Shown: positions 1 through 13,489, counted from the stretch's first letter. The stretch is DNA of 32,917 bases from a virus (IMGVR_UViG_3300026549_000035:1-32917); one strand, 5' to 3'. The notes: generated by a model not told the origin, from the letters alone. Translations and numbers: made by a program.

Positions 1-88
<88 letters not shown>

Positions 89-96
89 ATGTATTT

Positions 97-125
97 ATTA
101 TAACACACTTTATTAGAAATGTCAA
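97..125 (-). promoter_or_regulatory. Sigma-A type promoter (TTGACA, 17 bp spacer, TATAAT) firing toward the poly(T) tract
   Basis: Minus strand reads TTGACAtttctaataaagtgtgtTATAAT. Positions 97-140 nearly duplicate the promoter block at 1113-1160. Confidence 0.6.
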
Positions 126-276
126 TAGTTTTCGGGAAAATTTTTTCTCGATTGCGCCCGGGCCAAATCAAAACAAAAAGAGCTAAATGGCTAGCCTCGT
201 GAAAATTCGACCGCATCGCGGTCTGTGTCGGTCACCATTCAGCAGGTGACTTTTCACAAAAGTCTTTTAATGGACA

Positions 277-348
277 CTAATCGCAACCAGTGGCACTGGC
301 GCAAACTTTAGCAATCAATAAAAGGGCTTTTACTAATTCAAGAGTCAT
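277..348 (-). CDS. Possible 23-aa hydrophobic peptide (MTLELVKALLLIAKVCASATGCD), apparently translationally coupled downstream of the AbrB-like gene
   Basis: AGGAG 9 nt upstream of the ATG. TAG stop. Followed by a structured ~150 nt 3' region with hairpins GTCACC..GGTGAC and GACCGC..GCGGTC. Confidence 0.3.
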   Translation of the reverse strand: MTLELVKALLLIAKVCASATGCD

Positions 349-367
349 AACATTTAGCTCCTTTCAA

Positions 368-619
368 TTATTTAGTTTTACTTTCAATAAGTTGTATTAA
401 TTTTTCGAATCGCTCATCAACTTCAAGGTCATCTTGCCAGTCTTGCCGCAATTCGTTTAAAACAGGAATAGTATCATTTTGACGTTTGCGTAAAATCAAT
501 TCACCATTGTCTTTTGGAATGATTTCAATTTCATCGCCACCCATCCAACGCAAAGCGCGTCTTACATCTCTTGGAATAGCGATACGTCCAATATCATCAA
601 TCTTTTTAATTATTACCAT
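368..619 (-). CDS. AbrB/MazE/SpoVT-family swapped-hairpin DNA-binding protein (83 aa)
   Basis: N-terminus MVIIKKIDDIGRIAIPRDVRRAL matches the IDxLGRIVIPxxxR AbrB-N motif. RBS GGATGTG. TAA stop. Own promoter at 646-674. Confidence 0.8.
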   Translation of the reverse strand: MVIIKKIDDIGRIAIPRDVRRALRWMGGDEIEIIPKDNGELILRKRQNDTIPVLNELRQDWQDDLEVDERFEKLIQLIESKTK

Positions 620-645
620 TTTATCACATCCTTTATTATAATAAA

Positions 646-674
646 ATTATAACAAATTTTTTCAAAAAAGTCAA
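646..674 (-). promoter_or_regulatory. Sigma-A type promoter TTGACT-17-TATAAT for the AbrB-like gene
   Basis: Minus strand reads TTGACTtttttgaaaaaatttgtTATAAT, followed by the RBS and the ATG. Confidence 0.7.
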
Positions 675-684
675 AAAAATCGGT

Positions 685-722
685 AAAAAACCCTAAAAAA
701 TCGTTATTTTTAGGGTTTTTTC
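685..722. terminator. Intrinsic terminator hairpin AACCCTAAAAA..TTTTTAGGGTT flanked by A and T runs, possibly bidirectional
   Basis: Inverted repeat with a T-tract on both strands, directly after the stop codon of gene 723..1091. Confidence 0.7.
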
Positions 723-1091
723 TTACTTTTTAGGTGGTCTATGCTTAATTAATGTGATAGAATAGTCATTTGAGCCAACAATTAGCGAAATTTCACGCTC
801 TTTTTTGATAATTGATACATCAAAACCGTCTTTTTCACTCAAAAAATCAGCAATTTCTTCAATAATTTGTCTTTTTTCAAGGTCAGGTTTACGTTCTCTT
901 TTAGTGAAATTATACGCTGTTTGTTTGCGTTCAGCCTGTCTATACTTACGGGTGCTTTTTTCTTGCTCAGGAGTTAAGTCAAATTCTGTCTTTTTTCCTT
1001 TGTCAACATCTTCATCATAGGCAAGAATTTCTCTGGCTTCTGCTTCTGAGATATCTAATTTTTTCATTAAAGATTGAATTTTTTCATTCAT
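723..1091 (-). CDS. Hypothetical protein (122 aa), paralog A1 of gene 3049..3417; both end KLIKHRPPKK
   Basis: Start chosen at MNEK, 7 nt after GGGGA. Promoter at 1122-1150. Clear sequence similarity to the 3049..3417 product. Confidence 0.7.
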   Translation of the reverse strand: MNEKIQSLMKKLDISEAEAREILAYDEDVDKGKKTEFDLTPEQEKSTRKYRQAERKQTAYNFTKRERKPDLEKRQIIEEIADFLSEKDGFDVSIIKKEREISLIVGSNDYSITLIKHRPPKK

Positions 1092-1121
1092 AAGCATTTC
1101 CCCTTTTTATTTGATGTATTT

Positions 1122-1150
1122 ATTATAACACATTTTTATTTAAATGTCAA
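1122..1150 (-). promoter_or_regulatory. Sigma-A type promoter TTGACA-17-TATAAT with CGCCCGGGCG palindrome 10 bp upstream of the -35
   Basis: Minus strand reads cgcccgggcgaaaaaactaTTGACAtttaaataaaaatgtgtTATAAT. Confidence 0.7.
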
Positions 1151-1174
1151 TAGTTTTTTCGCCCGGGCGAATCG

Positions 1175-1209
1175 CCCCCCTAAGGGGGCTGAGGGGTTAA
1201 CCCTCAGCC
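1175..1209 (-). other. Tandem GC-rich hairpins (CCCCCCTAAGGGGG and GGCTGAGGGGTTAACCCTCAGCC) at the 3' end of gene 1197..1565
   Basis: The stop codon of the gene lies inside the second hairpin. A near-identical hairpin recurs at 11893-11915. Confidence 0.5.
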
Positions 1210-1565
1210 ACGATACGGAAGTAGGTTCTCCGCTTCTCGGAGTACTTCTCAACCTTGCCTGCTTCAATAAGCTGGCGCATGAGAGCGGAAACGTGCTGAT
1301 TACTGTCGCCTTCAAGCTCAGCGATAGCCTTAAGCAAATCGGAAACAGTGAATCCAGTGTCCGCATTATCAGCAAGGAAATCAACGATAACTTCTTTCAG
1401 TTCCTCGTTTTTAACCTGCTGAGCGGTCAGCTTCTTGGGAGAAGCATTTTTCTTGTCAAGCTGTTCGACCATCTTGGTCAGCTTAGCAATAACTTCAGCA
1501 GGAGCGTCAGTTAGATGGTCGATGGCGTAGGTCAGAGCCTTGCGATTAGTCATCTTGTCGTTCAT
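1197..1565 (-). CDS. Hypothetical winged-helix-like protein (122 aa), paralog B1 of gene 4127..4492
   Basis: Both paralogs share KLTKMVEQLDKKNASPKKLTAQQVKNEELKEVIVDFLADN. RBS AGGAT. Tandem promoters at ~1600-1650 and ~1745-1790 with a conserved TATTACAGTCAAGGG leader. Confidence 0.7.
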   Translation of the reverse strand: MNDKMTNRKALTYAIDHLTDAPAEVIAKLTKMVEQLDKKNASPKKLTAQQVKNEELKEVIVDFLADNADTGFTVSDLLKAIAELEGDSNQHVSALMRQLIEAGKVEKYSEKRRTYFRIVAEG

Positions 1566-1954
1566 AGTATCAAATCCTTTCTGGTTTATTGGGTTTTCCT
1601 TCCCTTACTGTAGTTTTATTATAGCACATTCAGCGCTGATTGTCAAGGGTTTTTTCAAACTTTTTTTATTTTTTATTTTGAACGCCTACTCGTCAGTAGT
1701 TCGGGCAAGGACTAAGTCGTGCTCGCTCTCCGTTCCCTTGACTGTAATACTATTATAACACATTTATAAAAAAATACAAGTGGTAAAATCTACAGAGTTC
1801 GTCTAAATTTTTAACACTTTTTCATGCAAAATGCCAGAACCCCCGGGCGCCATAGGCTTTGAAAGTTTTTCATTTTTTTCTATTATTATTATATAATATT
1901 TTTTTATAAAAATCAATTGGTTCCCCGCTCTTTTCAGAATGGGGAACCTCATGA

Positions 1955-2527
1955 TTAGGCAACAGCGGAAACACCGCTATCCAAATAACTTTTTACGATT
2001 TTGTTAAATGTCAGCGTAGGAATGTCAACACCGAAAAATCGGTCGTTTTTCTTGAAAGCGTCAGGGAATCTGTGAATAAAAGCGGCTCTTGTGACCGATT
2101 CTGCACCCTCGGCAGGATAAGCACCGCAGTCAATTACAGAACAAATATCGGCTGATTCAACAGGAATACCACGCTTTTTATAATACTTGATTTCTTCTTT
2201 CAGTCTTTGCTCAGGTAATCGAGTAGTTGTACCGACCTTTGAGCAAATCAGCTCGCCGTTACTGTCATAGAACTTGTATAAATACACAAGCTGTTTACCG
2301 CCCCTTAAAACCTTTTTAGCTTTCAGGGTAATGTGATAAAATGTCTTGCAGGCTTTTTCTAAAAGTCCAGCAAACTTTTTCACATAACGCTTAATCGTTG
2401 ATTCTGCGTAACCAGTCCATTTCTTGATTTCTTCGGGGGTAAATCCATGACTGTCAAGATAAACCACCTGTAAATGTTTCTTGTCTGTATCCTCAAAACT
2501 TTGGAACACCTCAATTTTCTTTGCCAT
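1955..2527 (-). CDS. Hypothetical protein (190 aa) with a possible N-terminal HTH
   Basis: Start at ATG (MAKKIEV), 10 nt after AAAGGA. The GTG chosen by the ORF caller lies upstream. Promoter TTGACAactggcacagaatgtgcTATAAT at ~2555-2585. Hairpin terminator GGTTCCCC..GGGGAACC at ~1925-1955. Confidence 0.65.
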   Translation of the reverse strand: MAKKIEVFQSFEDTDKKHLQVVYLDSHGFTPEEIKKWTGYAESTIKRYVKKFAGLLEKACKTFYHITLKAKKVLRGGKQLVYLYKFYDSNGELICSKVGTTTRLPEQRLKEEIKYYKKRGIPVESADICSVIDCGAYPAEGAESVTRAAFIHRFPDAFKKNDRFFGVDIPTLTFNKIVKSYLDSGVSAVA

Positions 2528-2589
2528 TTTAACCACGTCCTTTTCTTTAGTGTTTTAATTATAGCACATTCTGTGCCAGTTGTCAAGCG

Positions 2590-2763
2590 TTATCTGTCAA
2601 AAATTGCAATAATAATTGCACAAAGAATGACAATAGCCAGAGGAATCCAGAAGGGGGCAAGAACCCACCACCAAGACCAAGTAATTACGCCGACAAGCTT
2701 CAAGATGATAAAGACAATTCCAAGAACGTCACATACGCCTAAGCCTACAACTTTAGTGTCCAT
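2590..2763 (-). CDS. Small membrane protein (57 aa, two predicted TM segments; the sequence includes a WSWWW motif)
   Basis: Not in the ORF track because it is <60 aa. Promoter TTGACAttctacaacaagtatgcTATAAT and RBS GAAAGGAGAG precede the ATG. Confidence 0.5.
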   Translation of the reverse strand: MDTKVVGLGVCDVLGIVFIILKLVGVITWSWWWVLAPFWIPLAIVILCAIIIAIFDR

Positions 2764-2832
2764 CTTTTTCTCTCCTTTCTCTCTTGATTACAATGTTATT
2801 ATAGCATACTTGTTGTAGAATGTCAATAGTTA

Positions 2833-3036
2833 TTACAAAATTGTAACCGCGCCCGGGCGAAAAAAGGGCGGGGAACGCCCACTTGGAAAAGGCGTTCCCT
2901 CGTTAATAATAAGTGTGATTATTTTCGGTTGCGGGCGAGGAAGTTTAGGAGCTTCTTGCCTTTTCTCGAACTCCTCAACCTCAAGAATAAAAGAGTCAAA
3001 AAAATCCAGAAAATCAGAATAACTTGTGTAATACAT
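2833..3036 (-). CDS. Hypothetical protein (67 aa), translationally coupled to gene 3049..3417
   Basis: Strong RBS GGAGGtttagaATG. The C-terminal part of the ORF runs through a terminator-like hairpin, so its extent is uncertain. Confidence 0.4.
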   Translation of the reverse strand: MYYTSYSDFLDFFDSFILEVEEFEKRQEAPKLPRPQPKIITLIINEGTPFPSGRSPPFFRPGAVTIL

Positions 3037-3048
3037 TCTAAACCTCCA

Positions 3049-3417
3049 TTACTTTTTAGGCGGGCGATGTTTAATCAGCTTCACCGAATAGCTATCACCT
3101 TTGAAAGTGAAATGTAAATCAGTTTCATTTTTCAAGGGTTCTGTGATTGCGCCCATGCCTTCCAAAAGAACACGAATACAGTTAATAATTTCTTTCTTGA
3201 TTTTATCAACTTTTCGCTCTCTTTTTACAGGGGTGCGTTTTTTCGAGCCTACCTTAGAAGCAGATTTTATCGCTTTTTTCTGCTCTGCCGTTAAATCAGA
3301 CTGAGCTTCTTTTACCGACATTTTGTCGATTTCTTCATCTTCTTCAAGAAGTTGAATAGCTTCTTCTCTGGAACATTCAAGCGTTTTCATCAGCTTTTGG
3401 ATTCGTTCTTCATTCAT
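3049..3417 (-). CDS. Hypothetical protein (122 aa), paralog A2 of gene 723..1091
   Basis: Start MNEER after AGAGGTG. Promoter TTGACAttttaatcaaaacgtgtTATAAT at ~3445-3480. Confidence 0.7.
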   Translation of the reverse strand: MNEERIQKLMKTLECSREEAIQLLEEDEEIDKMSVKEAQSDLTAEQKKAIKSASKVGSKKRTPVKRERKVDKIKKEIINCIRVLLEGMGAITEPLKNETDLHFTFKGDSYSVKLIKHRPPKK

Positions 3418-3479
3418 TATTAGCACCTCTCTTTCAGTGTCTTTATTATAACACGTTTTGATTAAAATGTCAATACTTT

Positions 3480-3850
3480 TTTAACAAAAAAAAATCAAAA
3501 TGTGGAGCTTTCATTATGGGGGCGGATCTGTGGATGTTATGGTTACCCTCACCGCCCAATGCTATGTTTTTTGAGTTTTCCTCTCAAAACTCCTAGCTAA
3601 AAACATAGAAAAGACTGGAAAAAGCCACCCCGCTTTTTTTAGTTGTTTTTTAGGTAAAAACATAGAAATGGGAGGTTGAAAACTAAAAAACTGAGCACTT
3701 TCTTTAAATATTTTTTCTTCTTGAAAAATTTTTGCCGCACTCATAGCCGTATTCTAATAAGTCACCAACACATCCATTATTTATTACTCATAGGGTCTTG
3801 ATGTTGGGTATCCCTCGTATAGTCCTAAAGATGAGGTACCTATCTCCTTA
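3480..3850 (-). ncRNA. Candidate non-coding or leader transcript driven by a duplicated ~90-bp promoter cassette (TTGACT-17-TATACT) at ~3855-3935
   Basis: No ATG-initiated ORF with an RBS. The only ORF (3562..3744, 60 aa) is low-complexity with no SD. Internal direct repeats TAAAAACATAGAAA. Ends in a GGGCGG..CCGCCC hairpin plus a U9 tract. Confidence 0.35.
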
Positions 3851-4000
3851 GAACACTTATAGTATAACACATAAAAGGTAAAAAGTCAATAGTTTTTTGA
3901 AAATTTTTTTCGTTATTTTTTTTAACAGGCACCCGGGCGCAAAGCCTGCGGAAATCCGCAGGCTAAGCACAGAAAGGAGGACTCAAAAATGAGGAGTTAT

Positions 4001-4075
4001 TGGTGCGTATAGTGGGAGTCGAACCCACCTAAACACGATTAAAAGTCGTGTGCATAGCCGCTTTGCTACATACGC
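4001..4075 (-). tRNA. tRNA-Lys, anticodon UUU, with an encoded CCA
   Basis: Acceptor stem GCGTATG/TATACGC (six Watson-Crick pairs plus one G-U). D-loop contains GG. Anticodon stem CACGA/TCGTG with loop CTTTTAA. T-arm GTGGG-TTCGACT-CCCAC. Discriminator A then CCA. Co-transcribed downstream of gene 4127..4492. Confidence 0.85.
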
Positions 4076-4126
4076 ATGATAGGGGGTGGGGGGATTTCGC
4101 TCCCCCCACGGAGCGGACTGAGGGAA

Positions 4127-4492
4127 TTAACCCGCAATCTTGAAGTAAGTCCGACGCTTCTCGGAGTATTTCTCGACCTTGTTCGCTTCAACGAGCTGAC
4201 GCATGAGAGCGGAAACGTGCTGATTGCTGTCACCTTCAAGCTCTGTGACAGACTTGATAAGGTCAGTGACCGTGAAGCCCTCATTCTCGTTATCAGCGAG
4301 GAAATCAACAATGACCTCTTTCAGCTCTTCGTTCTTGACCTGCTGAGCGGTCAGCTTCTTGGGAGAAGCGTTCTTCTTCTCCAACTGCTCCACCATCTTC
4401 TGAAGCTTTGCGGTAACTTCGGAATTGCTGTCACCGATAGCGTCGATGGCAAAAAGCAGGGCGGTCTTGTTAGTCATCTTGGTATTACTCAT
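4127..4492 (-). CDS. Hypothetical winged-helix-like protein (121 aa), paralog B2 of gene 1197..1565
   Basis: High sequence identity to 1197..1565. Tandem promoters at ~4545-4580 and ~4715-4760. Confidence 0.7.
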   Translation of the reverse strand: MSNTKMTNKTALLFAIDAIGDSNSEVTAKLQKMVEQLEKKNASPKKLTAQQVKNEELKEVIVDFLADNENEGFTVTDLIKSVTELEGDSNQHVSALMRQLVEANKVEKYSEKRRTYFKIAG

Positions 4493-4834
4493 AGTATCAA
4501 ATCCTTTCTGGTTTATTGGGTTTTCCTTCCCTTACTGTAGTTTTATTATAACACACCTTGCGGTAAAAGTCAAGGGTTTTTTCAAAGTTTTTTGAAAAAA
4601 TTTCTTCAAGTGTTGCAACTGCAATTCGGCTGTGCCTGTCCATTCTCGTAACCCCGTTAGGGATTGGTCATCAAATCACATAGGTCTTGGCTTGCTTGCC
4701 CTTGCCCTTGACTGTAATATTATTATAGCACATTCTCAAAAAAATGCAATAGGCAAAATGCACAAATCGGTCTAAATTTTTAACACTTTTTTGTGCATTT
4801 TGCGGGTGGCGCCCGGGCGCCCAAGGGCAGGCTG

Positions 4835-5332
4835 TTAGCCCACCCATGAGTAAACCTTGACTTTGGGAGTAATAGTCTTTTTAACCTTTTGCCATGTACC
4901 ACCATGTTCACGCCAGTCATATTTCGGATTAGGAATTGTATAGTTATTCCCATCATCATCGTGAACAATCAGCTCACGAGGCGGTGCCTCAGGGTTATCT
5001 ACCCAGTCTTCAACTTCAATAGTGATAGGTTCTCCATCAATTATCTCAGTCTTGATAATACCTTTATCAGAGAGAATTTTCATAACTCTGCCAATAAAGC
5101 TCGACCAGCTCCGAGCTTCTTTAGTACGCCCATAGGAGGTGTAGTCAAGAGAGCTTGAAAACTTACGAATAGCGTGCTTAGAATACTCCTCTCCCATGAT
5201 AGCGATACCAATTTCTTTACAGGTCATAGGCTTTGTTGCAGAGCGCAGAATATCAAGGACGATTTCGGTATTTGAGATTGTTTTCTTAGACTTTCTTGCT
5301 CCTACAAAAATTTCTTCATAACTTAATGACAT
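4835..5332 (-). CDS. Hypothetical protein (165 aa)
   Basis: ORF with promoter TAGACA-17-TATAAT at ~5385-5430. Terminator-like GGGTGG..CCACCC hairpin enclosing GCGCCCGGGCGC at ~4800-4835. Confidence 0.65.
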   Translation of the reverse strand: MSLSYEEIFVGARKSKKTISNTEIVLDILRSATKPMTCKEIGIAIMGEEYSKHAIRKFSSSLDYTSYGRTKEARSWSSFIGRVMKILSDKGIIKTEIIDGEPITIEVEDWVDNPEAPPRELIVHDDDGNNYTIPNPKYDWREHGGTWQKVKKTITPKVKVYSWVG

Positions 5333-5511
5333 TTTAAAATCTCCTTTTATTTATTTGATGGGGCTTGGCTTCCCTTCCCTCATCTGACATACTTATTATA
5401 ACAGATAATTTTCATTTTGTCTATTGGCAAATTGTATAAATATGGGTCTAAATTTTTAATATTTTTATACAGATTGTTAAACATACTGACAAAGCCCGAA
5501 GGGGCTAAGCA

Positions 5512-5703
5512 TTATTTAGAACGCTTAGCCCTACAAGCTTTGCACATCAGCGGTGAAGTTGCAACCGCAACCAACACGCACATGATACAGCCCAAAATGC
5601 GGAAGAAATCAAACTCACCAAGAGTGAATCCAAAAACATACAGACCCGCAAAAAAGGCACAAAGATAAGAAATGACGAACTTTACAATGTTGAGAACTTT
5701 CAT
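5512..5703 (-). CDS. Small membrane protein (63 aa)
   Basis: Hydrophobic ORF. Promoter TTGTTG..TATAAT and RBS AAAGGGG at ~5705-5760. Hairpin terminator GGGCTAAGC..GCTTAGCCC at ~5480-5512. Confidence 0.55.
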   Translation of the reverse strand: MKVLNIVKFVISYLCAFFAGLYVFGFTLGEFDFFRILGCIMCVLVAVATSPLMCKACRAKRSK

Positions 5704-5869
5704 AATTCACAACCCCTTTCTTTGTTGTGTCTTTATTATAGCATACCTTTTGGAAAAAATCAACAACAGGGTTGTCATTTTTCGGTTACAGAATTTTAAC
5801 CAGCCCGGGCGCAAGAGGGCGTTTATGAAAATGAAATGAAAAATGAGAAAATACTTATAAAAATGAAAT

Positions 5870-6162
5870 AAAAAAGGAAATGGATAGGCTATTGCCTACC
5901 CAAATCCTATACGTATTATAAAACAGAAAAAAGAGGAGGAATCTCAAAATCTGCGTAGTATTGGAAAGGAGTTGCCGTCGTCCAGTCCACACTCACTTAC
6001 AACGGCTGTGAGTTGTCTTTGCCTCACTAATTTTTATACCGCAAGGTGGTCTTACCTGACAAGTATCCTGTCTTGTGCGCTAACCCCACGTCGCTTACAC
6101 TTTTGCCACTGCTGGAAGAAGGCTCAATGCTTGCGGTCGAAAGAAGTTCTATCTCTCTTTTA
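5870..6162 (-). ncRNA. Candidate ~290-nt non-coding RNA (unit 2)
   Basis: Promoter TTGACTttttcattaaagtatgtTATAAT at ~6168-6203. The transcribed minus strand contains no AUG. Ends in an 8-bp hairpin GGGUAGGC..GCCUAUCC followed by a U-rich tract at ~5870-5901. Confidence 0.4.
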
Positions 6163-6209
6163 GTGTCTTTATTATAACATACTTTAATGAAAAAGTCAAG
6201 AGATTTTTA

Positions 6210-6565
6210 AAAATTTTTTTCTATCGTGAATGGGGGCAAAAGAGCTGGACTTACATTATCTTCTCAAATGCCGTCGTAATGCCCCCATTGAACGAGAGTT
6301 CCCTCATTGTCGGTCACTCTAAACCCATGCAAGAAGTTCTTTTGCCACTCTAACGCAGGCAAAAAGCTACTCACGTTCAAAAAGCCCCGCGTTGCTACCG
6401 CACTTGTTATTGTTCTTCACTCTTGAAAACAATCCATCTTCCGAGGCAGCGTTGAACACTACTCTGAAAAGTCACCAAGCCCGTTTTTTTTACTACTCAT
6501 GGGAGACTACTGGAACTCCCCTTTGTAGTTCCAAGTTCGTGGCGCCCTCTCCCTTGGAACACTTA
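6210..6565 (-). ncRNA. Candidate ~350-nt structured non-coding RNA (unit 1)
   Basis: Driven by the second copy of the ~90-bp promoter cassette (TTGACT-17-TATACT) at ~6575-6640. Strong stems (GGGAGA..UCUCCC, AAUGGGGGCA..UGCCCCCAUU, CUUUUGCC..GGCAAAAG). Only 13-17 codon AUG ORFs without an RBS. Confidence 0.35.
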
Positions 6566-6663
6566 TAGTATAACACATAAAAGGTAAAAAGTCAATAGTT
6601 TTTTGAAAAATTTTTTTCGTTATTTTTTTAACAAATGCCCGGGCGCGCACTAAGAGTTTTCCC

Positions 6664-7014
6664 TTAGTGCGTAAAATGAATGAACTGTTGAGCAGGTTCC
6701 CATTTCAGGTCATCCCATAGGAAATCTAATAAATTGTATTTTTTAAAGAGCCTATCAAAAGCGAATCTGGTAGGAATATCTAAGAGTTTAGAGCTTGGTA
6801 TTACTGAATTAGAATCTTCATCAAGATAAAAAACAATTCCTAAGAAGTAGCCCTCATCTGTCCAAGTGCTAATAATCGGACAGTATTTTTCATCAAAAAA
6901 TTCTTCAAATTCTTCTTCTGTCATTCCTTGCTCAAGAAACTTATCTAAAAGTTTGTCCCTTGTTTCAGAATCAATAACGATACCATATCCAACAGCATAA
7001 CTATCTTCTATCAT
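6664..7014 (-). CDS. Hypothetical acidic protein (116 aa), second gene of a two-gene operon
   Basis: RBS GGAGGAAtataatcATG directly after the stop of 7017..7271. Its TAA stop lies inside the terminator hairpin GCACTAAG..CTTAGTGC, next to GCGCCCGGGC. Confidence 0.65.
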   Translation of the reverse strand: MIEDSYAVGYGIVIDSETRDKLLDKFLEQGMTEEEFEEFFDEKYCPIISTWTDEGYFLGIVFYLDEDSNSVIPSSKLLDIPTRFAFDRLFKKYNLLDFLWDDLKWEPAQQFIHFTH

Positions 7015-7016
7015 GA

Positions 7017-7271
7017 TTATATTCCTCCATTATACAATAAACATAAAAAATAAATATTTAATACTGCACTTGAAAGGTGCATTACTAATCCACTTACTCT
7101 GCGGTCAGTGGTTAAATCTCGGATTATTCCTACCACAGCGATACCTAAACCAAGCCAAGAAATAGAAAGACCGAAGCACATAATAAGTATTACATTGATT
7201 ACCATAGCAACACAGCGCAGGTCATTCCATTCAAAGATGTAAGGCTCAGTAATATTGAAAAATCTCTTCAT
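7017..7271 (-). CDS. Small membrane protein (84 aa)
   Basis: Start MKRFF after AGAGGAG. Promoter TTGACAaataatttaaaacatgaTATAAT (extended -10 TGaTATAAT) at ~7285-7320. Confidence 0.6.
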   Translation of the reverse strand: MKRFFNITEPYIFEWNDLRCVAMVINVILIMCFGLSISWLGLGIAVVGIIRDLTTDRRVSGLVMHLSSAVLNIYFLCLLYNGGI

Positions 7272-7320
7272 CTTTATCAGCTCCTCTCTTTTTTCTATAT
7301 ATATTATATCATGTTTTAAA

Positions 7321-7446
7321 TTATTTGTCAAGCATTTCTTTATCCCAATCATCAAGAGCTTCCTTGCTCTGGTCGAGCCACGCGCCGAGGCTCGCGTCGC
7401 TCTCCACTTTCGAACTATATAAAAGCCATATAGGGGCTGTTGACAT
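7321..7446 (-). CDS. Small acidic protein (41 aa; MSTAPIWLLYSSKVESDASLGAWLDQSKEALDDWDKEMLDK)
   Basis: Missed by the ORF track because it is <60 aa. Strong RBS GGAAAGGAGAGG. Promoter TTGACAaagtggcacggggtgtgcTATAAT at ~7525-7560. Its last codons (L D K, then stop) are encoded by the -35 TTGACAAATAA of the next promoter. Confidence 0.45.
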   Translation of the reverse strand: MSTAPIWLLYSSKVESDASLGAWLDQSKEALDDWDKEMLDK

Positions 7447-7559
7447 GATTTCCTCTCCTTTCCACTTTCACACTTTACTGCGGTAAAGCCCCTCTCTCCC
7501 CTCGCAGGGGCGGGCTTCCGACACCTTTATTATAGCACACCCCGTGCCACTTTGTCAAG

Positions 7560-7790
7560 TTACAATTTTGTAACCTTTTCGTGCTTTAACGTATTAAAGC
7601 GTAGCGGTTTAACGTTTTAGTGTGCTAAAGTACTTTCGGGATTTACCATGTTAGCACTTTAACGTGTTAAAGCGTAACGATTTATTGCTTTAACGCTTTA
7701 GTGCGTGAAAACGGGTCGCGGCACCCAATCGCGACCCGCCGAATGCATAATTATTCATGGGTATGCTTGCATAAATATGCAAAAAAGGAT
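7560..7790. promoter_or_regulatory. Repeat-rich intergenic regulatory region: TTGTAAC direct repeats, multiple GCTTTAAC/GTTAAAGC palindromes, TTGCATAAATATGCAA, and the GC hairpin GGGTCGCG..CGCGACCC
   Basis: Iteron-like repeats read directly from the sequence. Architecture mirrors 9895-10095. Confidence 0.5.
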
Positions 7791-7848
7791 TGAGGTTAAT
7801 TCTCAACCCTTTATAAGTTTGTGTAGCGGTTTGGATTTTGAGGAAAAG

Positions 7849-8250
7849 CTATTTTAACTTTTCCTCAAGCCATGCTAACATTTTTTTACTTTCATCACGC
7901 AAGCGGATTTTTTCAGCTCCGCCATTTTTTTCGCTCTCTCTGGTAACGTAACCAAAAGCATTTACAAAAGCGATATACTCAGCTTTTTCCATAACGTAGG
8001 CTGTGCCGTTTCTGGTAGCGTAAATGTAAAGGTCAGAAGCGTCAAGGTCAAGGTATCTTTCAAGGTCTGTGCCTTTGCAGATAGAAGCCTTTGCGCTTTT
8101 CACTTGGAAGTTAAGAACATCAGCCCCTTTGTCAAATCTCAGGTTATCAGCCTTTAGGATTTCACCTGTTAAATGAAATCTGATTGACTGCTCTGCGTTT
8201 TGTCCGTGATTGCGGTAGTTGTTAAGATAAGTGAAAGTAAATGCTCTCAT
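7849..8250 (-). CDS. Hypothetical protein (133 aa)
   Basis: Start MRAF after AAAGGA. Promoter TTGACAagCCCGGGCtgatgtgcTATAAT at ~8255-8310. Imperfect hairpin terminator at ~7775-7812. Confidence 0.65.
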   Translation of the reverse strand: MRAFTFTYLNNYRNHGQNAEQSIRFHLTGEILKADNLRFDKGADVLNFQVKSAKASICKGTDLERYLDLDASDLYIYATRNGTAYVMEKAEYIAFVNAFGYVTRESEKNGGAEKIRLRDESKKMLAWLEEKLK

Positions 8251-8319
8251 TTTTCGATCGTCCTTTCGTCTTTCGTTAATACTATTATAGCACATCAGCC
8301 CGGGCTTGTCAAGCCTTTT

Positions 8320-8481
8320 TCAAGAAAAAATATAATTTTTCTTGAAACTGTAAAAGGCTTGTTCAAACTGTAAAAGCTCCGACAGAGTGAAACGGCTTGC
8401 GAAATGCTCAGGCGTTTCATCAAACAGGTAATAGCCATTTTTTACCATTCTTTCCACGACATAAATTTTTGATTCTTTCAT
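8320..8481 (-). CDS. Small protein (53 aa; MKESKIYVVERMVKNGYYLFDETPEHF...)
   Basis: Below 60 aa, so absent from the ORF track. RBS GAGAGGAGAA. Extended -10 promoter (acaTGaTATAAT) paralogous to the promoter at 7285-7320. Confidence 0.45.
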   Translation of the reverse strand: MKESKIYVVERMVKNGYYLFDETPEHFASRFTLSELLQFEQAFYSFKKNYIFS

Positions 8482-8545
8482 TTTAGTTTTCTCCTCTCTC
8501 TTTACTATCTATATTATATCATGTTACGTGTCCTATAAACGGGAC

Positions 8546-8950
8546 TTAGAGAGCTACCGCTTCACCTTTTTCAGCTAAAGTGATTGCTTCATATCCAGCC
8601 TTTGTCCATTGGCGGGTATTCTTGGGGTCATCATCAACCAGAACGCCAACCTCACGGATAAAATCAACTTTGCGACCATAACCAACTATGCAGATAAAAT
8701 TTGCAAGTGCAAATTCGGGAATGTGCTTTGCAAGCCAATCAATTTTTCCCGCCTTGCCTGCTTCGTTGCGGGCTTTGGTCAGAATGTAAACCTTGACGCC
8801 TTCAGCGATAAGTCTGCGGACTGTTGAAACGTTCTCAGTGAATGGTTCAAGATTTGCCATAGCTTCACGGCTTGCGGCAGTGTTTTTGTCAGTAGCATAC
8901 GCTTTGTGGAAGTTGGCGAGAACGCCGTCCATGTCAAAGTAGTAAGTCAT
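8546..8950 (-). CDS. HAD-superfamily 5'(3')-deoxyribonucleotidase-like protein (134 aa)
   Basis: N-terminal motif YFDMDGVLANF (DxDGV, typical of NT5C-type nucleotidases). Start MTYYF after GGAGG. Promoter TTGACAtCCCGGGCtgtttggtgTATAAT. Confidence 0.8.
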   Translation of the reverse strand: MTYYFDMDGVLANFHKAYATDKNTAASREAMANLEPFTENVSTVRRLIAEGVKVYILTKARNEAGKAGKIDWLAKHIPEFALANFICIVGYGRKVDFIREVGVLVDDDPKNTRQWTKAGYEAITLAEKGEAVAL

Positions 8951-9093
8951 TTTTCGATCCTCCGTGTCTTTCATTGTCTTAATTATACACCAAACAGCCC
9001 GGGATGTCAAGCGTTTTTTGAAAAAAAATATTTTTTGTTAAAATGCACAAATTGGGAATATAGAATTTGTGCAACATTTAGCGCATTTTTCTC

Positions 9094-9122
9094 TTGACTT
9101 TTGGTGGGAGGTGTAGTATAAT
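9094..9122 (+). promoter_or_regulatory. Plus-strand sigma-A type promoter TTGACT-17-TATAAT driving a ~65-nt transcript antisense to the 3' end of gene 9181..9363
   Basis: TTGACTtttggtgggaggtgtagTATAAT. The transcript has hairpin GGGGCG..CGCCCC and terminates in the 10-bp stem ATAAGCGGAT..ATCCGCTTAT (9160-9184), shared with the convergent gene. Confidence 0.55.
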
Positions 9123-9180
9123 ATTTCGGGGCGCCACGCCCCTGATCGGTGACAAAAAAATAAGCGGATTTGCGATCCGC

Positions 9181-9363
9181 TTATCTGTGCCAGATTTTGA
9201 GGCTTGAAGCATACCGACCGAGGGGATACGTGCGAACCTCTTGTAGTTCAACATAAGAAACTTTGCCGACTTTTGAATTGAAGTAAGCAAGCGCCTCATC
9301 ATAGTTACGGAAAGCCTCATCTTCTCTAAAATTCCAAGTCACTACATAAAACATTTCTTTCAT
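9181..9363 (-). CDS. Small protein (60 aa), member of a 56-65 aa paralog family (with 12185..12355 and 13783..13980)
   Basis: Promoter TTGACAagCCCGGGCttttgatgTATAAT and RBS AAAGGAAAGAGG. Shares the YFN..V..ELK..IW pattern with 12185..12355. Confidence 0.6.
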   Translation of the reverse strand: MKEMFYVVTWNFREDEAFRNYDEALAYFNSKVGKVSYVELQEVRTYPLGRYASSLKIWHR

Positions 9364-9454
9364 TTTTCTTACCTCTTTCCTTTATCTTATGTATACATTA
9401 TACATCAAAAGCCCGGGCTTGTCAAGCCCTTTTATTGGACTTTGTAAAATTTTT

Positions 9455-9622
9455 TTATTTGCTCCAATCAGGGTTGAAAACCACAAAACCGTTGACATTT
9501 TTTGCGACTTCTTCTGCTTTGTCTGCGTTATCAAACGCACCCCAAAACCAGTCAGCACCGTCGCACTCTCTCGCTACGATGTAGGGAAAATCATCGGCGT
9601 AATCAGGCACATTCTTAATCAT
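9455..9622 (-). CDS. Small acidic protein (55 aa; MIKNVPDYADDFPYIVARECDGADWFWGAFDNADKAEEVAKNVNGFVVFNPDWSK)
   Basis: Missed by the ORF track. RBS AAGAGAGGAG. Promoter TTGACAaactcgatctcttggggTATACT, preceded by GGTTACAA..GTTACAA direct repeats. The overlapping plus-strand ORF 9389..9655 is an artefact. Confidence 0.5.
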   Translation of the reverse strand: MIKNVPDYADDFPYIVARECDGADWFWGAFDNADKAEEVAKNVNGFVVFNPDWSK

Positions 9623-9727
9623 TTTTCAAGCTCCTCTCTTAACTTTCTATACTAAGTATACCCCAAGAGATCGAGTTTGTCAAGCATTTTTTGAGATTGT
9701 AACTAATTTGTAACCTTTTGGATAATA

Positions 9728-9856
9728 AAAAAAATGAGGGCTTGCGCCCTCGGTGCTGACTTGCTCTCAGCTGGAACAGAGCTTTGTTTTAAGTGCGCCC
9801 ACCACTCGTAGTGTCGGCTGGTTTTTAGGTGTGCTCTGTTTCTCCCTTCACCCTAC
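9728..9856 (-). ncRNA. Candidate small RNA (~125 nt): consensus promoter, no AUG anywhere in the transcript, classic intrinsic terminator
   Basis: Promoter TTGACTtttataacataatcgtgTATAAT (-10 at 9863-9868). Terminator GAGGGCgcaaGCCCUC plus U8 at 9727-9752. Internal stem CAGAGC..GCUCUG. Confidence 0.5.
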
Positions 9857-9894
9857 AAGTAGATTATACACGATTATGTTATAAAAGTCAAGCA

Positions 9895-10095
9895 TTTTTT
9901 GAAATTGTAACTATTTTGTAACCTTTGCATACCCATGCATAATTATGCATACTTTCGGGATTTAATACTTTAGTGTGTTAAAGTGCATAATTATGCACTT
10001 TATTGTTGTAGCACTTTAACGCGCTAAAATCGGCGCGGGTCGATCGTAGGCGCGCCGCCGAAACAAAGTCCAATAAAATGGACTGAATAATTATG
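9895..10095. promoter_or_regulatory. Palindrome-rich regulatory region: ATGCATAATTATGCAT (perfect 16-bp), GTTAAAGTGCATAATTATGCACTTTA, GCACTTTAACG, TTGTAAC repeats, GC hairpin GGCGCG..GCGCGCC
   Basis: Read directly from the sequence. Shares TACTTTCGGGATTTA and the motif families with 7560-7790. Confidence 0.45.
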
Positions 10096-10117
10096 CAAAA
10101 AAAAATGCGGTCACCGC

Positions 10118-10375
10118 TCAGGGGAAAATCTGAGCGGTGATGTCAACGACAATCCAGCGAGAGCCGTCCTCAGAGAGGGAGCGTTCCCAGACCAAACCGC
10201 AAGGGAGAAAAATGCGGTTTCTGCGTTCCCAGCCTCGAACTGCCATGTCAATGAACAGCTCGAACATCTGGCTCTGAGTGAGACCTTCGAAAAGGCTTCT
10301 GACGAACCACATCTGACCATCGTCAGGAACAAGGCTCAGCAGAGTGCGGTAGTGGTTAAAATCTTTCTTAGTCAT
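10118..10375 (-). CDS. Hypothetical protein (85 aa)
   Basis: RBS AAAGGAGGAA. Promoter TTGACT-17-TATAAT at ~10400-10440. C-terminal codons and the TGA stop are encoded inside the terminator stem CACCGCTCAG..CTGAGCGGTG followed by a U9 tract. Confidence 0.6.
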   Translation of the reverse strand: MTKKDFNHYRTLLSLVPDDGQMWFVRSLFEGLTQSQMFELFIDMAVRGWERRNRIFLPCGLVWERSLSEDGSRWIVVDITAQIFP

Positions 10376-10528
10376 GTTAGTTCCTCCTTTGGGGGGGTAG
10401 CCCCTCTTTCATTGTCTTTATTATAGCACACTCGGGCAAAAAAGTCAATAGTTTTTTCAAAGAAAGTATTCGTCAAAATATACAAATCGGGAATCTTTTT
10501 TGACTGTGAAGTTTGTGCATTTTGCGAA

Positions 10529-10557
10529 TTGATTTTTGCGGCGGGCTGTGGTATAAT
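10529..10557 (+). promoter_or_regulatory. Plus-strand promoter TTGATT-17-TATAAT driving a short transcript antisense to the 3' end of gene 10603..10911
   Basis: The transcript begins AATTTCCGGC and ends at hairpin GGATTAGC..GCTAATCC (10600-10620). The same architecture recurs at 9094 and 12477. Confidence 0.5.
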
Positions 10558-10602
10558 AATTTCCGGCTCTGGCGCCCGGGCACGGTGACGAAAAGAAAAG
10601 GA

Positions 10603-10911: not shown

Positions 10912-11002
10912 TTTCTTATCTCCTCTCTTTATTGTGTCTTTATTATAGCACAGCCCGAGCGAAAAGTCAAGTGTTTTTTCAAAAAAAATAAAGGGCGTAT
11001 TT

Positions 11003-11272: not shown

Positions 11273-11397
11273 TTTTTTTTATCTCCTCTCTTTATTGTAT
11301 CTTTATTATAGCATAGACGCATCCAAAAGTCAATAGTTAAATTGCACAAAGATGTGATAAGAATTCTGTGCAGATTGACGAATCCGCCCGGGCGCAA

Positions 11398-11544: not shown

Positions 11545-11587
11545 TTTTATCTCCCCTTTCATTGTCTTTATTATAGCACAAAACCCC

Positions 11588-11881: not shown

Positions 11882-11911
11882 TTTTATCGCTCCTTTTGGA
11901 TAGCTGAGGGG

Positions 11912-13465: not shown

Positions 13466-13489
13466 TAATTAATCACAGTACATCCAAGT

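What the first reader, a model, noticed from the sequence alone, without database searches (positions are those of the whole stretch)
3480..6640. Duplicated ~90-bp promoter cassette drives two long ORF-poor structured transcripts
Near-identical blocks at 3850-3935 and 6555-6640 (CTTAGAACACTTATAGTATAACACATAAAAGGTAAAAAGTCAATAGTTTTTTGAAAA...) provide TTGACT-17-TATACT promoters. One transcript covers 3480-3850. The other covers 6210-6565, followed by a second promoter-driven unit at 5870-6162. The second unit has no AUG in ~290 nt and ends in a clean terminator. These transcripts contain long-range stems and only tiny RBS-less ORFs. Together they make ~1.1 kb of apparently non-coding, strongly promoted early RNA.
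Basis: seen in the sequence. Interest (0 to 1): 0.6.

Follow-up and report, generated by a model that had tools for sequence, protein, structure and literature searches.

The report
Uncatalogued structured RNA genes in phage
The two promoter-headed, ORF-free stretches are sister copies of a conserved structured RNA gene found in a small group of large phages and absent from Rfam; it probably pairs with itself through a palindromic loop, and its function is unknown.

Summary
Two 88%-identical blocks carry TTGACT-17-TATACT promoters. They head ORF-poor units A (3856-3485) and B (6562-6205). A third promoter-driven unit, C (6165-5870), has no ATG and ends in a clean terminator.

The duplication is not just a promoter cassette. 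A and B are paralogues of one RNA gene, alignable about 180 nt past the start. I found 17 distinct versions of its 5' domain in other phage and metagenome contigs, always directly behind a sigma-70-type promoter and next to unrelated genes. No ORF is conserved. Rfam 15 has no match.

Comparative analysis supports these elements:
- a 5' hairpin P1
- an H-type pseudoknot
- hairpin P5
- a long-range 3' stem P7

The apical loop of P1 always holds a GC-rich palindrome whose sequence changes between members (GGCGCC, UGGCCA, GGGCCC, GGGGCCCC, AGGUACCU). Published work on OLE and GOLLD RNAs reads that signature as a symmetric intermolecular kissing loop.

Single-sequence folding energies are not better than shuffles, expression is unproven, and function is unknown. 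My best reading is a trans-acting, self-dimerising early RNA carried as a swappable cassette. The host phage is about 177 kb and reads TAG as a sense codon in its late genes.

The parts
3861..3889 (-). Promoter of unit A: TTGACT, 17 nt, TATACT, with TG extension
   Evidence: 10 of 12 consensus matches, TG present. The same -10 context, TATACTATAAnTGTTCC, precedes nearly every family member.
3485..3856 (-). Unit A: paralogue 1 of the RNA family (about 372 nt). It has no canonical terminator and runs up to the promoter of the 125-aa gene.
   Evidence: Model R1 scores 77.7 bits, E about 1e-15, at 3856-3759. Variant copies occur in L174, L179, L180 and L182.
3822..3854 (-). A: hairpin P1 (GUUCUAAGG / CUUUAGGAC) with the palindrome AGGUACCU in its apical loop (3841-3834)
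   Evidence: Coordinates, pair counts, palindrome table.
3761..3816 (-). A: H-type pseudoknot. S1 is GAGGG/ACCCU, S2 is CCAACAUC/GAUGUGUUGG, with conserved loop L3 GAGUAAUAAAUAAUG and then UGGUGAC.
3710..3729 (-). A: hairpin P5 (AUUUUU-CAAGAAG-AAAAAAU)
3520..3557 (-). A: 3' stem P7 (GGGCGG ... CCGCCC). In L174 it is GGGCGA ... UCGCCC.
6567..6595 (-). Promoter of unit B: TTGACT, 17 nt, TATACT, with TG extension
6205..6562 (-). Unit B: paralogue 2 of the RNA family (about 358 nt). No terminator separates it from the promoter of unit C.
   Evidence: R1 scores 76.8 bits at 6562-6469. B-type copies occur in L166, L174 and L179.
6528..6560 (-). B: hairpin P1 (GUUCCAAG / CUUGGAAC) with the palindrome GGCGCC in its loop (6546-6541)
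6471..6521 (-). B: pseudoknot region. S1 is GGGGAG/CUCCC. S2 is weaker (CCAG/CUUGG). L3 is GAGUAGUAAAAAAAAC, followed by UGGUGAC.
6409..6433 (-). B: hairpin P5 (AUUGUUUUC-AAGAGU-GAAGAACAAU)
6230..6288 (-). B: 3' stem P7 (AUGGGGGCA ... UGCCCCCAU). In L179 it is ACAAGGGCA ... UGCCCUUG, which amounts to three compensatory pairs.
6171..6199 (-). Promoter of unit C: TTGACT, 17 nt, TATAAT, with TG. The promoter plus leader is 82% identical to that of the 125-aa gene at 3427-3487.
   Evidence: (family D1).
5870..6165 (-). Unit C: a separate ATG-free non-coding unit. Its conserved core is 6038-5974, its polypyrimidine tract 5941-5923, and its terminator 5902-5881.
   Evidence: No ATG. MFE z -2.95. The core is conserved in L136, L166 and L174, with three compensatory pairs in one helix. 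Terminator.
4001..4075 (-). tRNA-Lys(UUU), about 145 nt upstream of unit A's start. Its 3' trailer (about 3995-3925) has the same build as the trailer behind unit C and behind most family members.
   Evidence: tRNA-Lys(UUU) is also present in L132, L165, L166 and L174.

Best explanation
Units A and B are two paralogous genes for a conserved, structured, non-coding RNA of about 320-560 nt that is absent from Rfam 15. The family occurs in a small group of large phages. The phage of this window is about 177 kb and uses TAG as a sense codon in its late genes.

Shown: each copy starts directly at a strong host-type (sigma-70-like) promoter. It carries a conserved 5' domain made of hairpin P1, an H-type pseudoknot with an A-rich conserved loop, hairpin P4, the motif GCGGACAAA, and hairpin P5 with a CAAGAGG loop. 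A variable middle follows, then a closing 3' stem, P7.

Inferred: the RNA is made immediately on infection by host RNA polymerase and acts in trans. Two molecules join through the GC-rich palindrome in the P1 apical loop (a symmetric kissing loop), giving a homodimer or larger RNA-only assembly. The conserved single-stranded elements of that assembly bind an unknown host or phage partner. It would be a scaffold or decoy in host takeover, comparable in kind to the ROOL, GOLLD and OLE RNAs.

Unit C is a separate, less widely conserved non-coding unit with its own promoter, and it supplies the terminator for the B-C pair.
For: Family and independence from context:
- One DNA-pattern scan of metagenomes gave 11 true homologues. 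nhmmer and protein-anchored fetches, which did not use that pattern, gave L132, L179, L180 and L182.
- There are 19 hits with R1 scores of 57-100 bits, 17 of them distinct.
- Flanking genes differ between members.
- In L166 the slot of unit A holds a 74-aa protein cassette instead. The RNA therefore behaves as a swappable early cassette.

Not coding:
- No ORF is conserved, and the AUG of the recurring mini-ORF is GCG in six members.

Structure:
- In the 5' domain 89.4% of cells are paired, against 46.7% or less when partners are slid. The covariation score is 0.197 against 0.139 in shuffles (0 of 500 reach it).
- Pair 40-72 is AU in 11 and GC in 6 sequences. Pair 59-92 is AU in 14 and UA in 2. 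Pair 7-33 is CG in 14 and UA in 3. All.
- Many G-U pairs (for example 39-73, UG in all 17) fit only the promoter strand, so the structure is RNA-level.
- P5 forms in 14 of 15 single-sequence folds. With hand registration, 65 of 65 pairs form in 13 distinct stems, against 48.7 on shuffling.
- P7 shows compensatory changes between close relatives.

Dimerisation:
- The central 6 nt of the P1 loop are self-complementary in all members, with five different sequences.
- L132 and L165 are nearly identical downstream, yet carry UGGCCA and GGGCCC respectively.
- PMC12286853 uses exactly this palindrome covariation as evidence for symmetric intermolecular kissing loops in OLE and GOLLD.

No known family matches.
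Against: - Single-sequence folding energies are no better than shuffled controls: A z -0.78, B z -0.92, and the 5' halves of nine members between -0.73 and +2.04. MFE structures also differ between members.
- The 5' domain is so conserved in sequence that true covariation rests on a few pairs. The sequences are related, which inflates shuffle statistics.
- The registers for P5 and P7 were chosen by hand.
- Eleven members were retrieved with a pattern containing L3 and UUGGUGAC, so conservation of those two elements in them is by construction.
- A 6-nt palindrome occurs by chance in about 20% of shuffled 20-nt loops. The argument rests on its fixed position and its changing sequence.
- Some contexts argue against a purely free-standing RNA. 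In L179 the B-type copy runs straight into an RBS and a 73-aa ORF. A and B have no terminator of their own. The L180 copy lacks P7.
- No expression data, no partner, and no host are known.
- The family is sparse. R1 found no further member in about 2 Mb of related early regions.
Confidence: 0.55

Rival explanations
1. The element acts in cis as a leader or processive-antitermination RNA. The 5' domain folds on the nascent transcript right after the early promoter. It then modifies the transcribing RNA polymerase, or controls downstream expression, so that transcripts read through the terminators of the following cassettes. Phage HK022 putL and putR work this way, as two copies each just downstream of an early promoter.
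For: The RNA always begins at the transcription start of a strong promoter. The window has two copies. A and B have no terminator of their own. A abuts the 125-aa gene, and the L179 B-type copy continues into an RBS and ORF. The early arm is a chain of promoter-gene-terminator cassettes all pointing the same way.
Against: Most members are followed by a strong intrinsic terminator and then by a new promoter for the next gene. Downstream genes are unrelated between members. At 320-560 nt with a variable middle and a closing 3' stem, the RNA is far larger than the roughly 70-nt put RNAs (size recalled from my own knowledge). A self-complementary loop that keeps changing sequence has no role in a cis model. 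The put comparison rests on memory and was not tested.
Confidence: 0.15
2. The conserved 5' domain is a protein-binding decoy or sponge, and the palindrome is irrelevant or serves another purpose. The RNA would titrate a host factor as a monomer, for example an RNA-binding regulator, a nuclease or a defence sensor.
For: It sits in an early accessory region among ORFan cassettes and next to tRNA-Lys(UUU). Conserved unpaired motifs are present: L3, the P4 loop UUAGACGAUA, GCGGACAAA and the CAAGAGG loop. The RNA behaves as a swappable cassette, like the small early proteins.
Against: No partner has been identified, and there is no repeated binding motif of the kind seen in known sponges. The changing-but-always-palindromic loop is left unexplained. 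This rival overlaps with the best explanation and differs only on oligomeric state.
Confidence: 0.15
3. The units are decayed genes or recombination debris behind duplicated promoters, with no function of their own.
For: The early arm is full of segmental duplications and shuffled cassettes (D8 and D9). The promoter and leader of unit C are copied from a protein gene but lack a start codon (D1). A, B and C share short words in permuted order. Middle regions carry 100-nt insertions and deletions. MFE z-scores are unremarkable.
Against: The 5' domain is kept at 57-100 bits in contigs whose flanking genes share no similarity. Compensatory changes are present. The palindrome is maintained through sequence change. 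No reading frame is recoverable under any code.
Confidence: 0.05
4. The units encode small proteins or peptides, such as MSIK/MSNK, the 13-aa ORF in B, or the 60-aa ORF in A.
For: Short ATG ORFs exist. A 44-aa ORF in L174A overlaps the 60-aa ORF of A in sequence.
Against: The start codon is absent in six members and lengths differ (4, 13 or 0 aa). No Shine-Dalgarno sequence is present. A 1-nt indel breaks the 60-aa frame in L174. Unit C has no ATG, and an indel shifts its longest open frame in L174.
Confidence: 0.03
5. The conservation reflects a DNA-level element, such as an operator for a dimeric regulator at +15 to +22 (the palindrome), an origin, or a packaging site.
For: The palindromes resemble protein-binding or restriction sites (GGCGCC, TGGCCA, GGGCCC, GGTACC). 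Another palindrome, GCCCGGGC, is scattered through promoters and terminators of this region (D5).
Against: Conservation extends over 140 nt or more, plus a distal stem. Pairs include many G-U, which would be A-C mismatches on the other strand. Helices covary. An operator would not be expected to switch sequence between near-identical relatives such as L132 and L165.
Confidence: 0.04

Closest known systems
ROOL, GOLLD and OLE: large 'ornate' bacterial and phage RNAs that form RNA-only homo-oligomers (Kretsch et al., Nature 2025, PMC12286853)
   Same: It is encoded in phages and lies near tRNA genes. It is several hundred nucleotides long, with pseudoknots and a poorly conserved internal linker, and no protein partner or function is known. 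A loop palindrome changes sequence while staying self-complementary, which that paper reads as a symmetric intermolecular kissing loop.
   Different: No sequence or structure match to the Rfam models of ROOL, GOLLD, OLE or raiA, even at E up to 5-10. It is shorter (320-560 nt). The conserved part is the 5' domain directly at the promoter. Oligomerisation is only inferred here. The family is much rarer, with 17 distinct sequences found.
Phage phi29 pRNA (packaging RNA)
   Same: A phage RNA made from an early promoter near a genome end, which works as an oligomer through intermolecular loop-loop pairing that covaries between relatives (established knowledge, not tested here).
   Different: Here there is a single self-complementary loop, which implies a symmetric dimer contact. 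This phage has a classical large terminase and portal. There is no Rfam pRNA hit.
Retroviral dimerisation initiation site (HIV-1 DIS kissing loop)
   Same: A 6-nt GC-rich palindrome flanked by unpaired purines in the apical loop of a 5'-terminal hairpin. Different palindromes define compatibility groups (established knowledge).
   Different: The biology is entirely different (genome dimerisation for packaging), and there is no homology.
HK022 put RNAs (cis-acting antiterminator RNAs)
   Same: Two copies per phage, each just downstream of an early promoter, active as folded nascent RNA without protein factors (established knowledge).
   Different: put RNAs are about 70 nt and consist of two hairpins. 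Here the RNA is larger, has a pseudoknot, is usually followed by its own terminator, and has a palindromic loop. No test was possible.
Theta (minimal HDV-like) ribozymes of recoded gut phages (PMC10879173)
   Same: Structured RNA elements with nested pseudoknots, found in TAG-recoded gut-type phages and associated with phage tRNAs.
   Different: Theta ribozymes are about 56 nt and lie within +/-5 nt of a tRNA 3' end. Unit A starts about 145 nt after tRNA-Lys, behind a terminator and its own promoter. No HDV-type Rfam hit was found.

Membership tests
ROOL RNA (Rfam) | Match to the ROOL covariance model (sequence plus secondary structure) | tested here: not met
   No hit at the gathering threshold in the window or 13 loci. 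No hit at E up to 10 in 3400-6700 or E up to 5 in six member contigs.
GOLLD RNA (Rfam) | Match to the GOLLD covariance model, including its conserved 3' domain | tested here: not met
   Same searches, no hit.
ROOL/GOLLD-like 'ornate' phage RNAs (functional kind, not homology) | Phage-encoded, with a tRNA gene nearby | tested here: met
   The window has portal, terminase and TAG recoding. tRNA-Lys(UUU) is in the same early region in the window, L132, L165, L166 and L174.
ROOL/GOLLD-like 'ornate' phage RNAs (functional kind, not homology) | Forms RNA-only homo-oligomers | not testable with these tools
   Only the palindrome-covariation signature is available. Native gels, SEC-MALS or cryo-EM are needed.
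Symmetric kissing-loop RNAs | A self-complementary loop sequence that changes between homologues while staying self-complementary | tested here: met
   The central 6 nt are self-complementary in all members. Position 4-5 is GC in 6, CG in 5 and UA in 1. Position 2-7 is GC in 8 and UA in 4. Five different palindromes occur.
phi29-type pRNA (Rfam) | Match to the pRNA model; two mutually complementary, non-self-complementary loops | tested here: not met
   No Rfam hit. The loop here is self-complementary.
Theta / HDV-like ribozyme | Cleavage site within +/-5 nt of a tRNA 3' end; about 56-nt double pseudoknot with a catalytic C | tested here: not met
   Unit A begins about 145 nt after the tRNA, behind a terminator and promoter. 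No HDV-family hit. Definition taken.
tRNA / tmRNA | Cloverleaf or tmRNA architecture detectable by ARAGORN or the Rfam tRNA model | tested here: not met
   The only call in the window is tRNA-Lys at 4001-4075.
Small protein gene | Start codon, RBS and reading frame conserved across homologues | tested here: not met
HK022 put-type antiterminator RNA | Makes RNA polymerase terminator-resistant in cis | not testable with these tools
   There is only positional resemblance, in that the RNA starts at the promoter. No model was available to me.
Sigma-70-type early promoter | -35 TTGACA-like, 17-nt spacer, -10 TATAAT-like, TG extension | tested here: met
   This is a consensus match only, and activity was not tested.

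The most novel reading that the evidence does not exclude
A and B belong to a new class of phage-encoded structured RNA that assembles into RNA-only homodimers or higher-order complexes through a rapidly diversifying kissing loop. Different palindromes (GGCGCC in B, AGGUACCU in A) would act as specificity codes that keep the two paralogues, or the RNAs of co-infecting phages, from mixing. The RNA would be made at the first moment of infection of a TAG-recoded phage, possibly to capture a component of the host translation or defence machinery. It would be a further natural RNA quaternary assembly after OLE, ROOL and GOLLD, and a shorter one (about 320-560 nt).
Probability: 0.3. Interest if true: 0.8.

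Novelty: new variant of a known kind. Interest (0 to 1): 0.62.

Why it matters
Large structured RNAs of unknown function are rare, and few are known from phages. Each new class has opened new biology. ROOL, GOLLD and OLE were recently shown to be RNA-only multimers, and what they do is still an open question.

This family is smaller and has a sharply defined 5' end at a promoter. It exists as two diverged paralogues in one genome. It also carries a clear, testable signature of self-association whose specificity changes between near-identical relatives.

That makes the self-association question directly testable. Transcribe the RNA in vitro, check for dimers, and swap the palindromes. The finding also adds a non-protein player to the early, host-takeover arm of stop-codon-recoded phages. 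Annotation pipelines currently leave that region blank.

Tried and rejected
**Known RNA families.** Rfam was run at the gathering threshold and at permissive E-values on the window and on member contigs. Nothing turned up but tRNA and noise.

**GenBank phages.** blastn 'distant' against GenBank phage records found only short promoter-like matches.

**Protein-anchored searches.**
- A search with the 165-aa neighbour found no relatives in IMG/VR.
- A first p121 alignment was too diverse to search with.
- The early neighbours are ORFans in Pfam and PHROGs.

**DNA pattern scans of IMG/VR.**
- The first pattern found nothing.
- Two further patterns found only L036 and one chance hit in an RNA-virus polymerase gene.
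- The genome-contig scan gave only chance hits in coding regions, so there is no bacterial or host homologue under that pattern.

**More family members.** Model R1 over about 2 Mb of related early regions found no more members.

**Recoded translation.** TAG, TGA or TAA read as sense does not open any frame in A, B or C.

**Thermodynamic support.** Not significant for A, B or nine 5' halves.

**Ideas considered by eye and dropped.**
- The P1 palindrome pairing intramolecularly with the S1b region (GGCC): it is not consistent across members.
- An HDV-like fold for the tRNA trailer or for the 5' domain: there is no G-rich P1/P3 and no CM hit.
- A CsrA-type sponge (GGA motifs) and an antisense target for L3: I have no host sequence to test against, and the motifs are too short or too AT-rich to be informative.

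**Assembly ends.** The ends of contig L002 fall near transcript ends, but they lie inside repeated blocks. They are assembly breaks, not expression evidence.


Full report
**Where the window comes from**

The window is the left end of a phage contig of about 177.5 kb (ENA ERZ27252065 k141_7166, 99.99% identical over 15.3 kb).

- Positions 1-16,000 are an early arm read on the minus strand. It is a chain of about 25 cassettes, each with a TTGACA-17-TATAAT promoter, a purine-rich leader, a small ORFan gene and often a terminator.
- From 16,000 on, the plus strand carries structural genes that only make sense if TAG is read as an amino acid. Summed ORF length rises from 2,377 to 5,404 aa.
- With TAG read as Gln, a full-length portal (E 2.4e-71, 11 in-frame TAG) and a large terminase (10 TAG) appear.

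The finding therefore lies in the standard-code early arm of a stop-codon-recoded phage.

**Checking the observation**

All features are on the minus strand.

- Blocks 3846-3940 and 6552-6646 are 88% identical (D10).
- The scan finds TTGACT-17-TATACT with a TG extension at 3889->3861 and 6595->6567, TTGACT-17-TATAAT at 6199->6171, and the next gene's promoter at 3473->3445. That is 19 promoter-like sites against 6.8 +/- 2.3 in shuffles.
- Unit A runs 3856->3485, unit B 6562->6205, and unit C 6165->5870.
- C has no ATG in 306 nt and ends in a 9-bp hairpin plus T-run at 5902->5881.
- No frame of A, B or C is open under the standard code or with any single stop recoded.

First, the A/B similarity continues about 180 nt beyond the promoter. 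Second, the claimed long-range stems are not supported by folding energy for A (z -0.78) or B (z -0.92). Only C stands out, at z -2.95.

**What A and B are**

The A/B alignment already shows compensatory changes in a 5' hairpin. Rfam 15 gives nothing for the region, at the gathering threshold or at E up to 10. GenBank phages hold no relative.

I found relatives in four steps:

1. A scan of IMG/VR for the phage's promoter-leader word pulled in early regions of related phages. One of them, L036 (a 150-kb contig), holds a homologue behind a different TTGACA/TATAAT promoter and in front of an unrelated gene.
2. A protein anchor, the multi-copy 121-aa family, brought in 58 more early regions. nhmmer on these found a further homologue in L132, a 172-kb contig.
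3. A degenerate pattern built from the four sequences was run over JGI metagenomes. It returned 13 stretches: 11 homologues, of which two (L167, L173) are the L036 and L132 contigs themselves, plus one further copy in L174 and one chance hit. The same pattern in 185,579 bacterial and archaeal genomes gave only chance hits in coding sequence.
4. Exact-protein look-ups of the gene next to A gave three more variant copies, independent of any RNA pattern (L179, L180, L182).

A covariance model of the 5' domain (R1) scores all 19 copies at 57-100 bits. It finds nothing else in about 2 Mb of related early regions. The family is real but sparse.

**Not coding, not context-bound**

No ORF is shared. 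The 4-codon MSIK/MSNK mini-ORF loses its AUG (it becomes GCG) in six members. A's 60-aa ORF has no Shine-Dalgarno sequence and is broken by an indel in L174.

Every member starts within a few nucleotides of a -10 element with a TG extension. The promoter type differs between members, however. L163 and L169 use a TTGCAT -35 with a different upstream element.

The flanking genes are unrelated. In L166, a close relative at about 86-95% identity, the slot of unit A holds a promoter plus a 74-aa protein gene instead. The RNA gene thus behaves like the small early protein cassettes around it.

**Anatomy**

From the alignments and sequence inspection, the RNA has these parts:

- **P1**, GUUCCAAG/CUUGGAAC, begins at about +3. 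In some members it carries an internal A-A / A-G loop.
- **The P1 apical loop** has 13-19 nt.
- **An H-type pseudoknot.** S1 is GGG/CCC, extended by CU[R]U/[R][Y]G. S2 is CCAACAUC/GAUGUUGG. The conserved A-rich loop L3 is GAGUAYCAAAUAAUG.
- **UGAC**, opening **P4** (GAC/GUC with a 13-nt loop, UUAGACGAUA).
- **GCGGACAAA.**
- **P5**, a hairpin with a CAAGAGG-type loop.
- **A variable middle** of about 60-300 nt with large insertions and deletions.
- **P7**, a long-range G-rich/C-rich stem (GGGGGCGG ... CCGCCCCC) followed by AAGAUAGGG.

On the model-guided alignment of 17 distinct 5' domains, 89.4% of cells pair, against 46.7% or less when partners are slid by 1-3 columns. The covariation score is 0.197 against 0.139 in shuffles (0 of 500 reach it). 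Pair 40-72 is AU in 11 and GC in 6. Pair 59-92 is AU in 14 and UA in 2. Pair 7-33 is CG in 14 and UA in 3 (the earlier A5 count is).

Frequent G-U pairs (for example 39-73, UG in all 17) are only possible on the promoter strand. This argues for RNA and against a DNA element.

P5 is predicted in 14 of 15 single-sequence folds. With my hand-chosen registers, all 65 pairs form in 13 different stems, against 48.7 after shuffling partners (0 of 2,000 reach the observed value).

P7 changes GGGCGG/CCGCCC to GGGCGA/UCGCCC between the window's A and L174. It changes AAUGGGGGCA/UGCCCCCAUU to AACAAGGGCA/UGCCCUUGCUU between the window's B and L179.

**Caveats on structure**

- The 5' domain is highly conserved, so few pairs can covary.
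- The sequences are related.
- The registers for P5 and P7 were chosen by eye.
- L3 and UUGGUGAC were part of the retrieval pattern for eleven members.
- Minimum-free-energy z-scores for nine 5' halves lie between -0.73 and +2.04, and the MFE folds disagree with each other.

The structural case is comparative, not thermodynamic. The pseudoknot cannot be seen by the folding tools used.

**The palindrome**

In every member the P1 apical loop holds a GC-rich self-complementary stretch at the same place, flanked by purines on the 5' side and A-rich sequence on the 3' side. Five versions occur: GGCGCC, UGGCCA, GGGCCC, GGGGCCCC and AGGUACCU.

Six adjacent self-complementary bases cannot pair within one loop. 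A single 20-nt loop has about a 20% chance of containing some 6-nt palindrome. The weight therefore lies in the fixed position and the symmetric double substitutions. The central pair is GC in 6, CG in 5 and UA in 1. The next-but-one pair is GC in 8 and UA in 4.

L132 and L165 are almost identical from the pseudoknot onward, yet carry UGGCCA and GGGCCC. In the window, A has AGGUACCU and B has GGCGCC. In L174 both copies have GGCGCC.

Kretsch et al. (PMC12286853) use exactly this signature, loop palindromes switching among GGCC, GAUC and AGCU, as evidence for symmetric intermolecular kissing loops in OLE and GOLLD. They note that ROOL and GOLLD are phage or prophage RNAs often found near tRNAs. 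I therefore infer that this RNA self-associates through P1. That is an inference from sequence and was not shown.

**Unit C**

C has a perfect promoter, and its -10 and leader are copied from a protein-gene cassette (82% to 3427-3487, D1). It has no start codon. An indel shifts the longest open frame in L174.

L166 and L174 have C behind their B-type copy. A 65-nt core (6038-5974) recurs in an otherwise different non-coding unit of L136, with three compensatory pairs in one helix: GCCGUUG/CGACGGC against AGCCUUG/CGAGGCU. L179 has no C at all.

C is thus a second, independently conserved non-coding element, with thinner evidence.

**The 3' trailers**

Most family members end in a common trailer. 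It consists of a small hairpin, a polypyrimidine tract (CUCCUUUCUUUCU) that resembles the 16S rRNA 3' end as I recall it, then CUGUG, a terminator hairpin and GCGCCCGGGCG.

In the window this trailer follows tRNA-Lys (about 3995-3925) and unit C (5941-5870). It does not follow protein genes. I have no explanation for it.

**How it probably works**

- Shown: a conserved, non-coding, promoter-proximal element with conserved helices and a variable but always palindromic loop, which moves as a cassette.
- Inferred: immediate-early transcription by host polymerase, action in trans, homodimer or larger assembly through P1, and binding of an unknown partner by the conserved unpaired motifs.

I give this reading a confidence of 0.55. 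The rivals:

| Rival | Confidence | Comment |
|---|---|---|
| cis-acting leader / antiterminator | 0.15 | Favoured by the position at +1, the missing terminators of A and B, and the L179 copy that runs into an ORF. Disfavoured by terminators and new promoters behind most members, and by the palindrome. |
| Monomeric protein decoy | 0.15 | Overlaps the best explanation and leaves the palindrome unexplained. |
| Debris | 0.05 | Disfavoured by conservation and compensatory changes. |
| DNA element | 0.04 | Disfavoured by G-U pairs and covarying helices. |
| Peptide genes | 0.03 | Disfavoured by the lack of any conserved frame. |

**Comparison with known systems**

It works most like the ROOL, GOLLD and OLE kind: a phage or bacterial RNA, tRNA-linked, with pseudoknots, a variable linker and self-association. 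It is not a member of any of them, because their models do not match.

phi29 pRNA and the retroviral DIS are mechanistic analogies for loop-loop oligomerisation. HK022 put RNAs are the analogy for the cis rival. Theta ribozymes are the known RNA elements of recoded gut phages, but they are defined by direct adjacency to a tRNA 3' end, and that condition is not met here.

Full-text literature searches found no description of this family.

**Verdict**

Function is unknown, and dimerisation is directly testable. Interest 0.62.

Noticed in passing
window 16000-32917 (+ strand): The late and structural genes are TAG-recoded. ORF content more than doubles when TAG is read as sense. The portal (23245-24984, 11 TAG), large terminase (20222-21574, 10 TAG) and an HNH endonuclease (18059-18901, 5 TAG) become full-length. 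The early arm (1-16000, minus strand) uses the standard code. No suppressor tRNA lies in this window.
   Followed up: partly
window 3925-3995 (-), 5870-5945 (-); L132, L162, L164, L165, L170, L171, L172: A common 3' trailer follows non-coding genes (tRNA-Lys, unit C and most RNA family members) but not protein genes. It consists of a small hairpin, a polypyrimidine tract CCUCCUUUCU that resembles the 16S rRNA 3' end (anti-Shine-Dalgarno; from memory), then CUGUG, a terminator hairpin and GCGCCCGGGCG. Its meaning is unknown.
   Followed up: partly
window 8283-8335, 8981-9033, 9396-9448, 12934-12986, and after many terminators (e.g. 3930-3940, 4810-4825, 5805-5815, 6640-6650): The palindrome GCCCGGGC recurs inside promoter spacers and just after terminators throughout the early arm. 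It may be a regulator binding site or a mini-hairpin.
   Followed up: no
L170, about 30-130 nt downstream of its RNA family member (minus strand of the locus): A promoter is followed by an 87-nt tRNA-like sequence ending in CCA. By eye it appears to have an 8-bp acceptor stem and a 4-bp T stem. ARAGORN does not call it. It may be an unusual 'allo-tRNA'-type gene.
   Followed up: no
window 4711-4790 (-), 5395-5480 (-); L136, L163, L169: There is a second promoter type, with the upstream element TTTGTGCATTTTGCCTATTGCAT (-35 TTGCAT). At 4725-4590 it drives a further 130-nt non-coding stretch in tandem with the normal promoter of the 121-aa gene. The element also forms inverted repeats with 12460-12494 and 10512-10537.
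   Followed up: no
window 1197-1565 and 4127-4492 (-); many loci: The 121/122-aa protein is duplicated in the window (77% DNA identity) and is present in up to four copies per early region in related 120-200 kb phages. It has a weak DUF5797 / phrog_30233 match and its function is unknown.
   Followed up: partly
window 14235-14350 and 14839-15307: CT-rich tandem-like repeats, and three copies of a 42-nt repeat (TCCAGCCTGTGCGTTGGCTGATAGGAGCCAGCACCGTAGCGG), lie in a gene-poor stretch near the switch between the early and late arms. This could be another non-coding or regulatory region.
   Followed up: no
window 6205-6350 (B) and 6060-6150 (C): B and C share two exact 10-nt words (GUGGCAAAAG, AGAACUUCUU). 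They are adjacent in B but separated and in reverse order in C. This hints at a recombination history between the two units.
   Followed up: no
L179 479-1069: In this relative the B-type RNA is followed directly by an RBS and a 73-aa ORF, with no promoter, unit C or terminator in between. There the RNA would form a roughly 370-nt 5' leader.
   Followed up: partly
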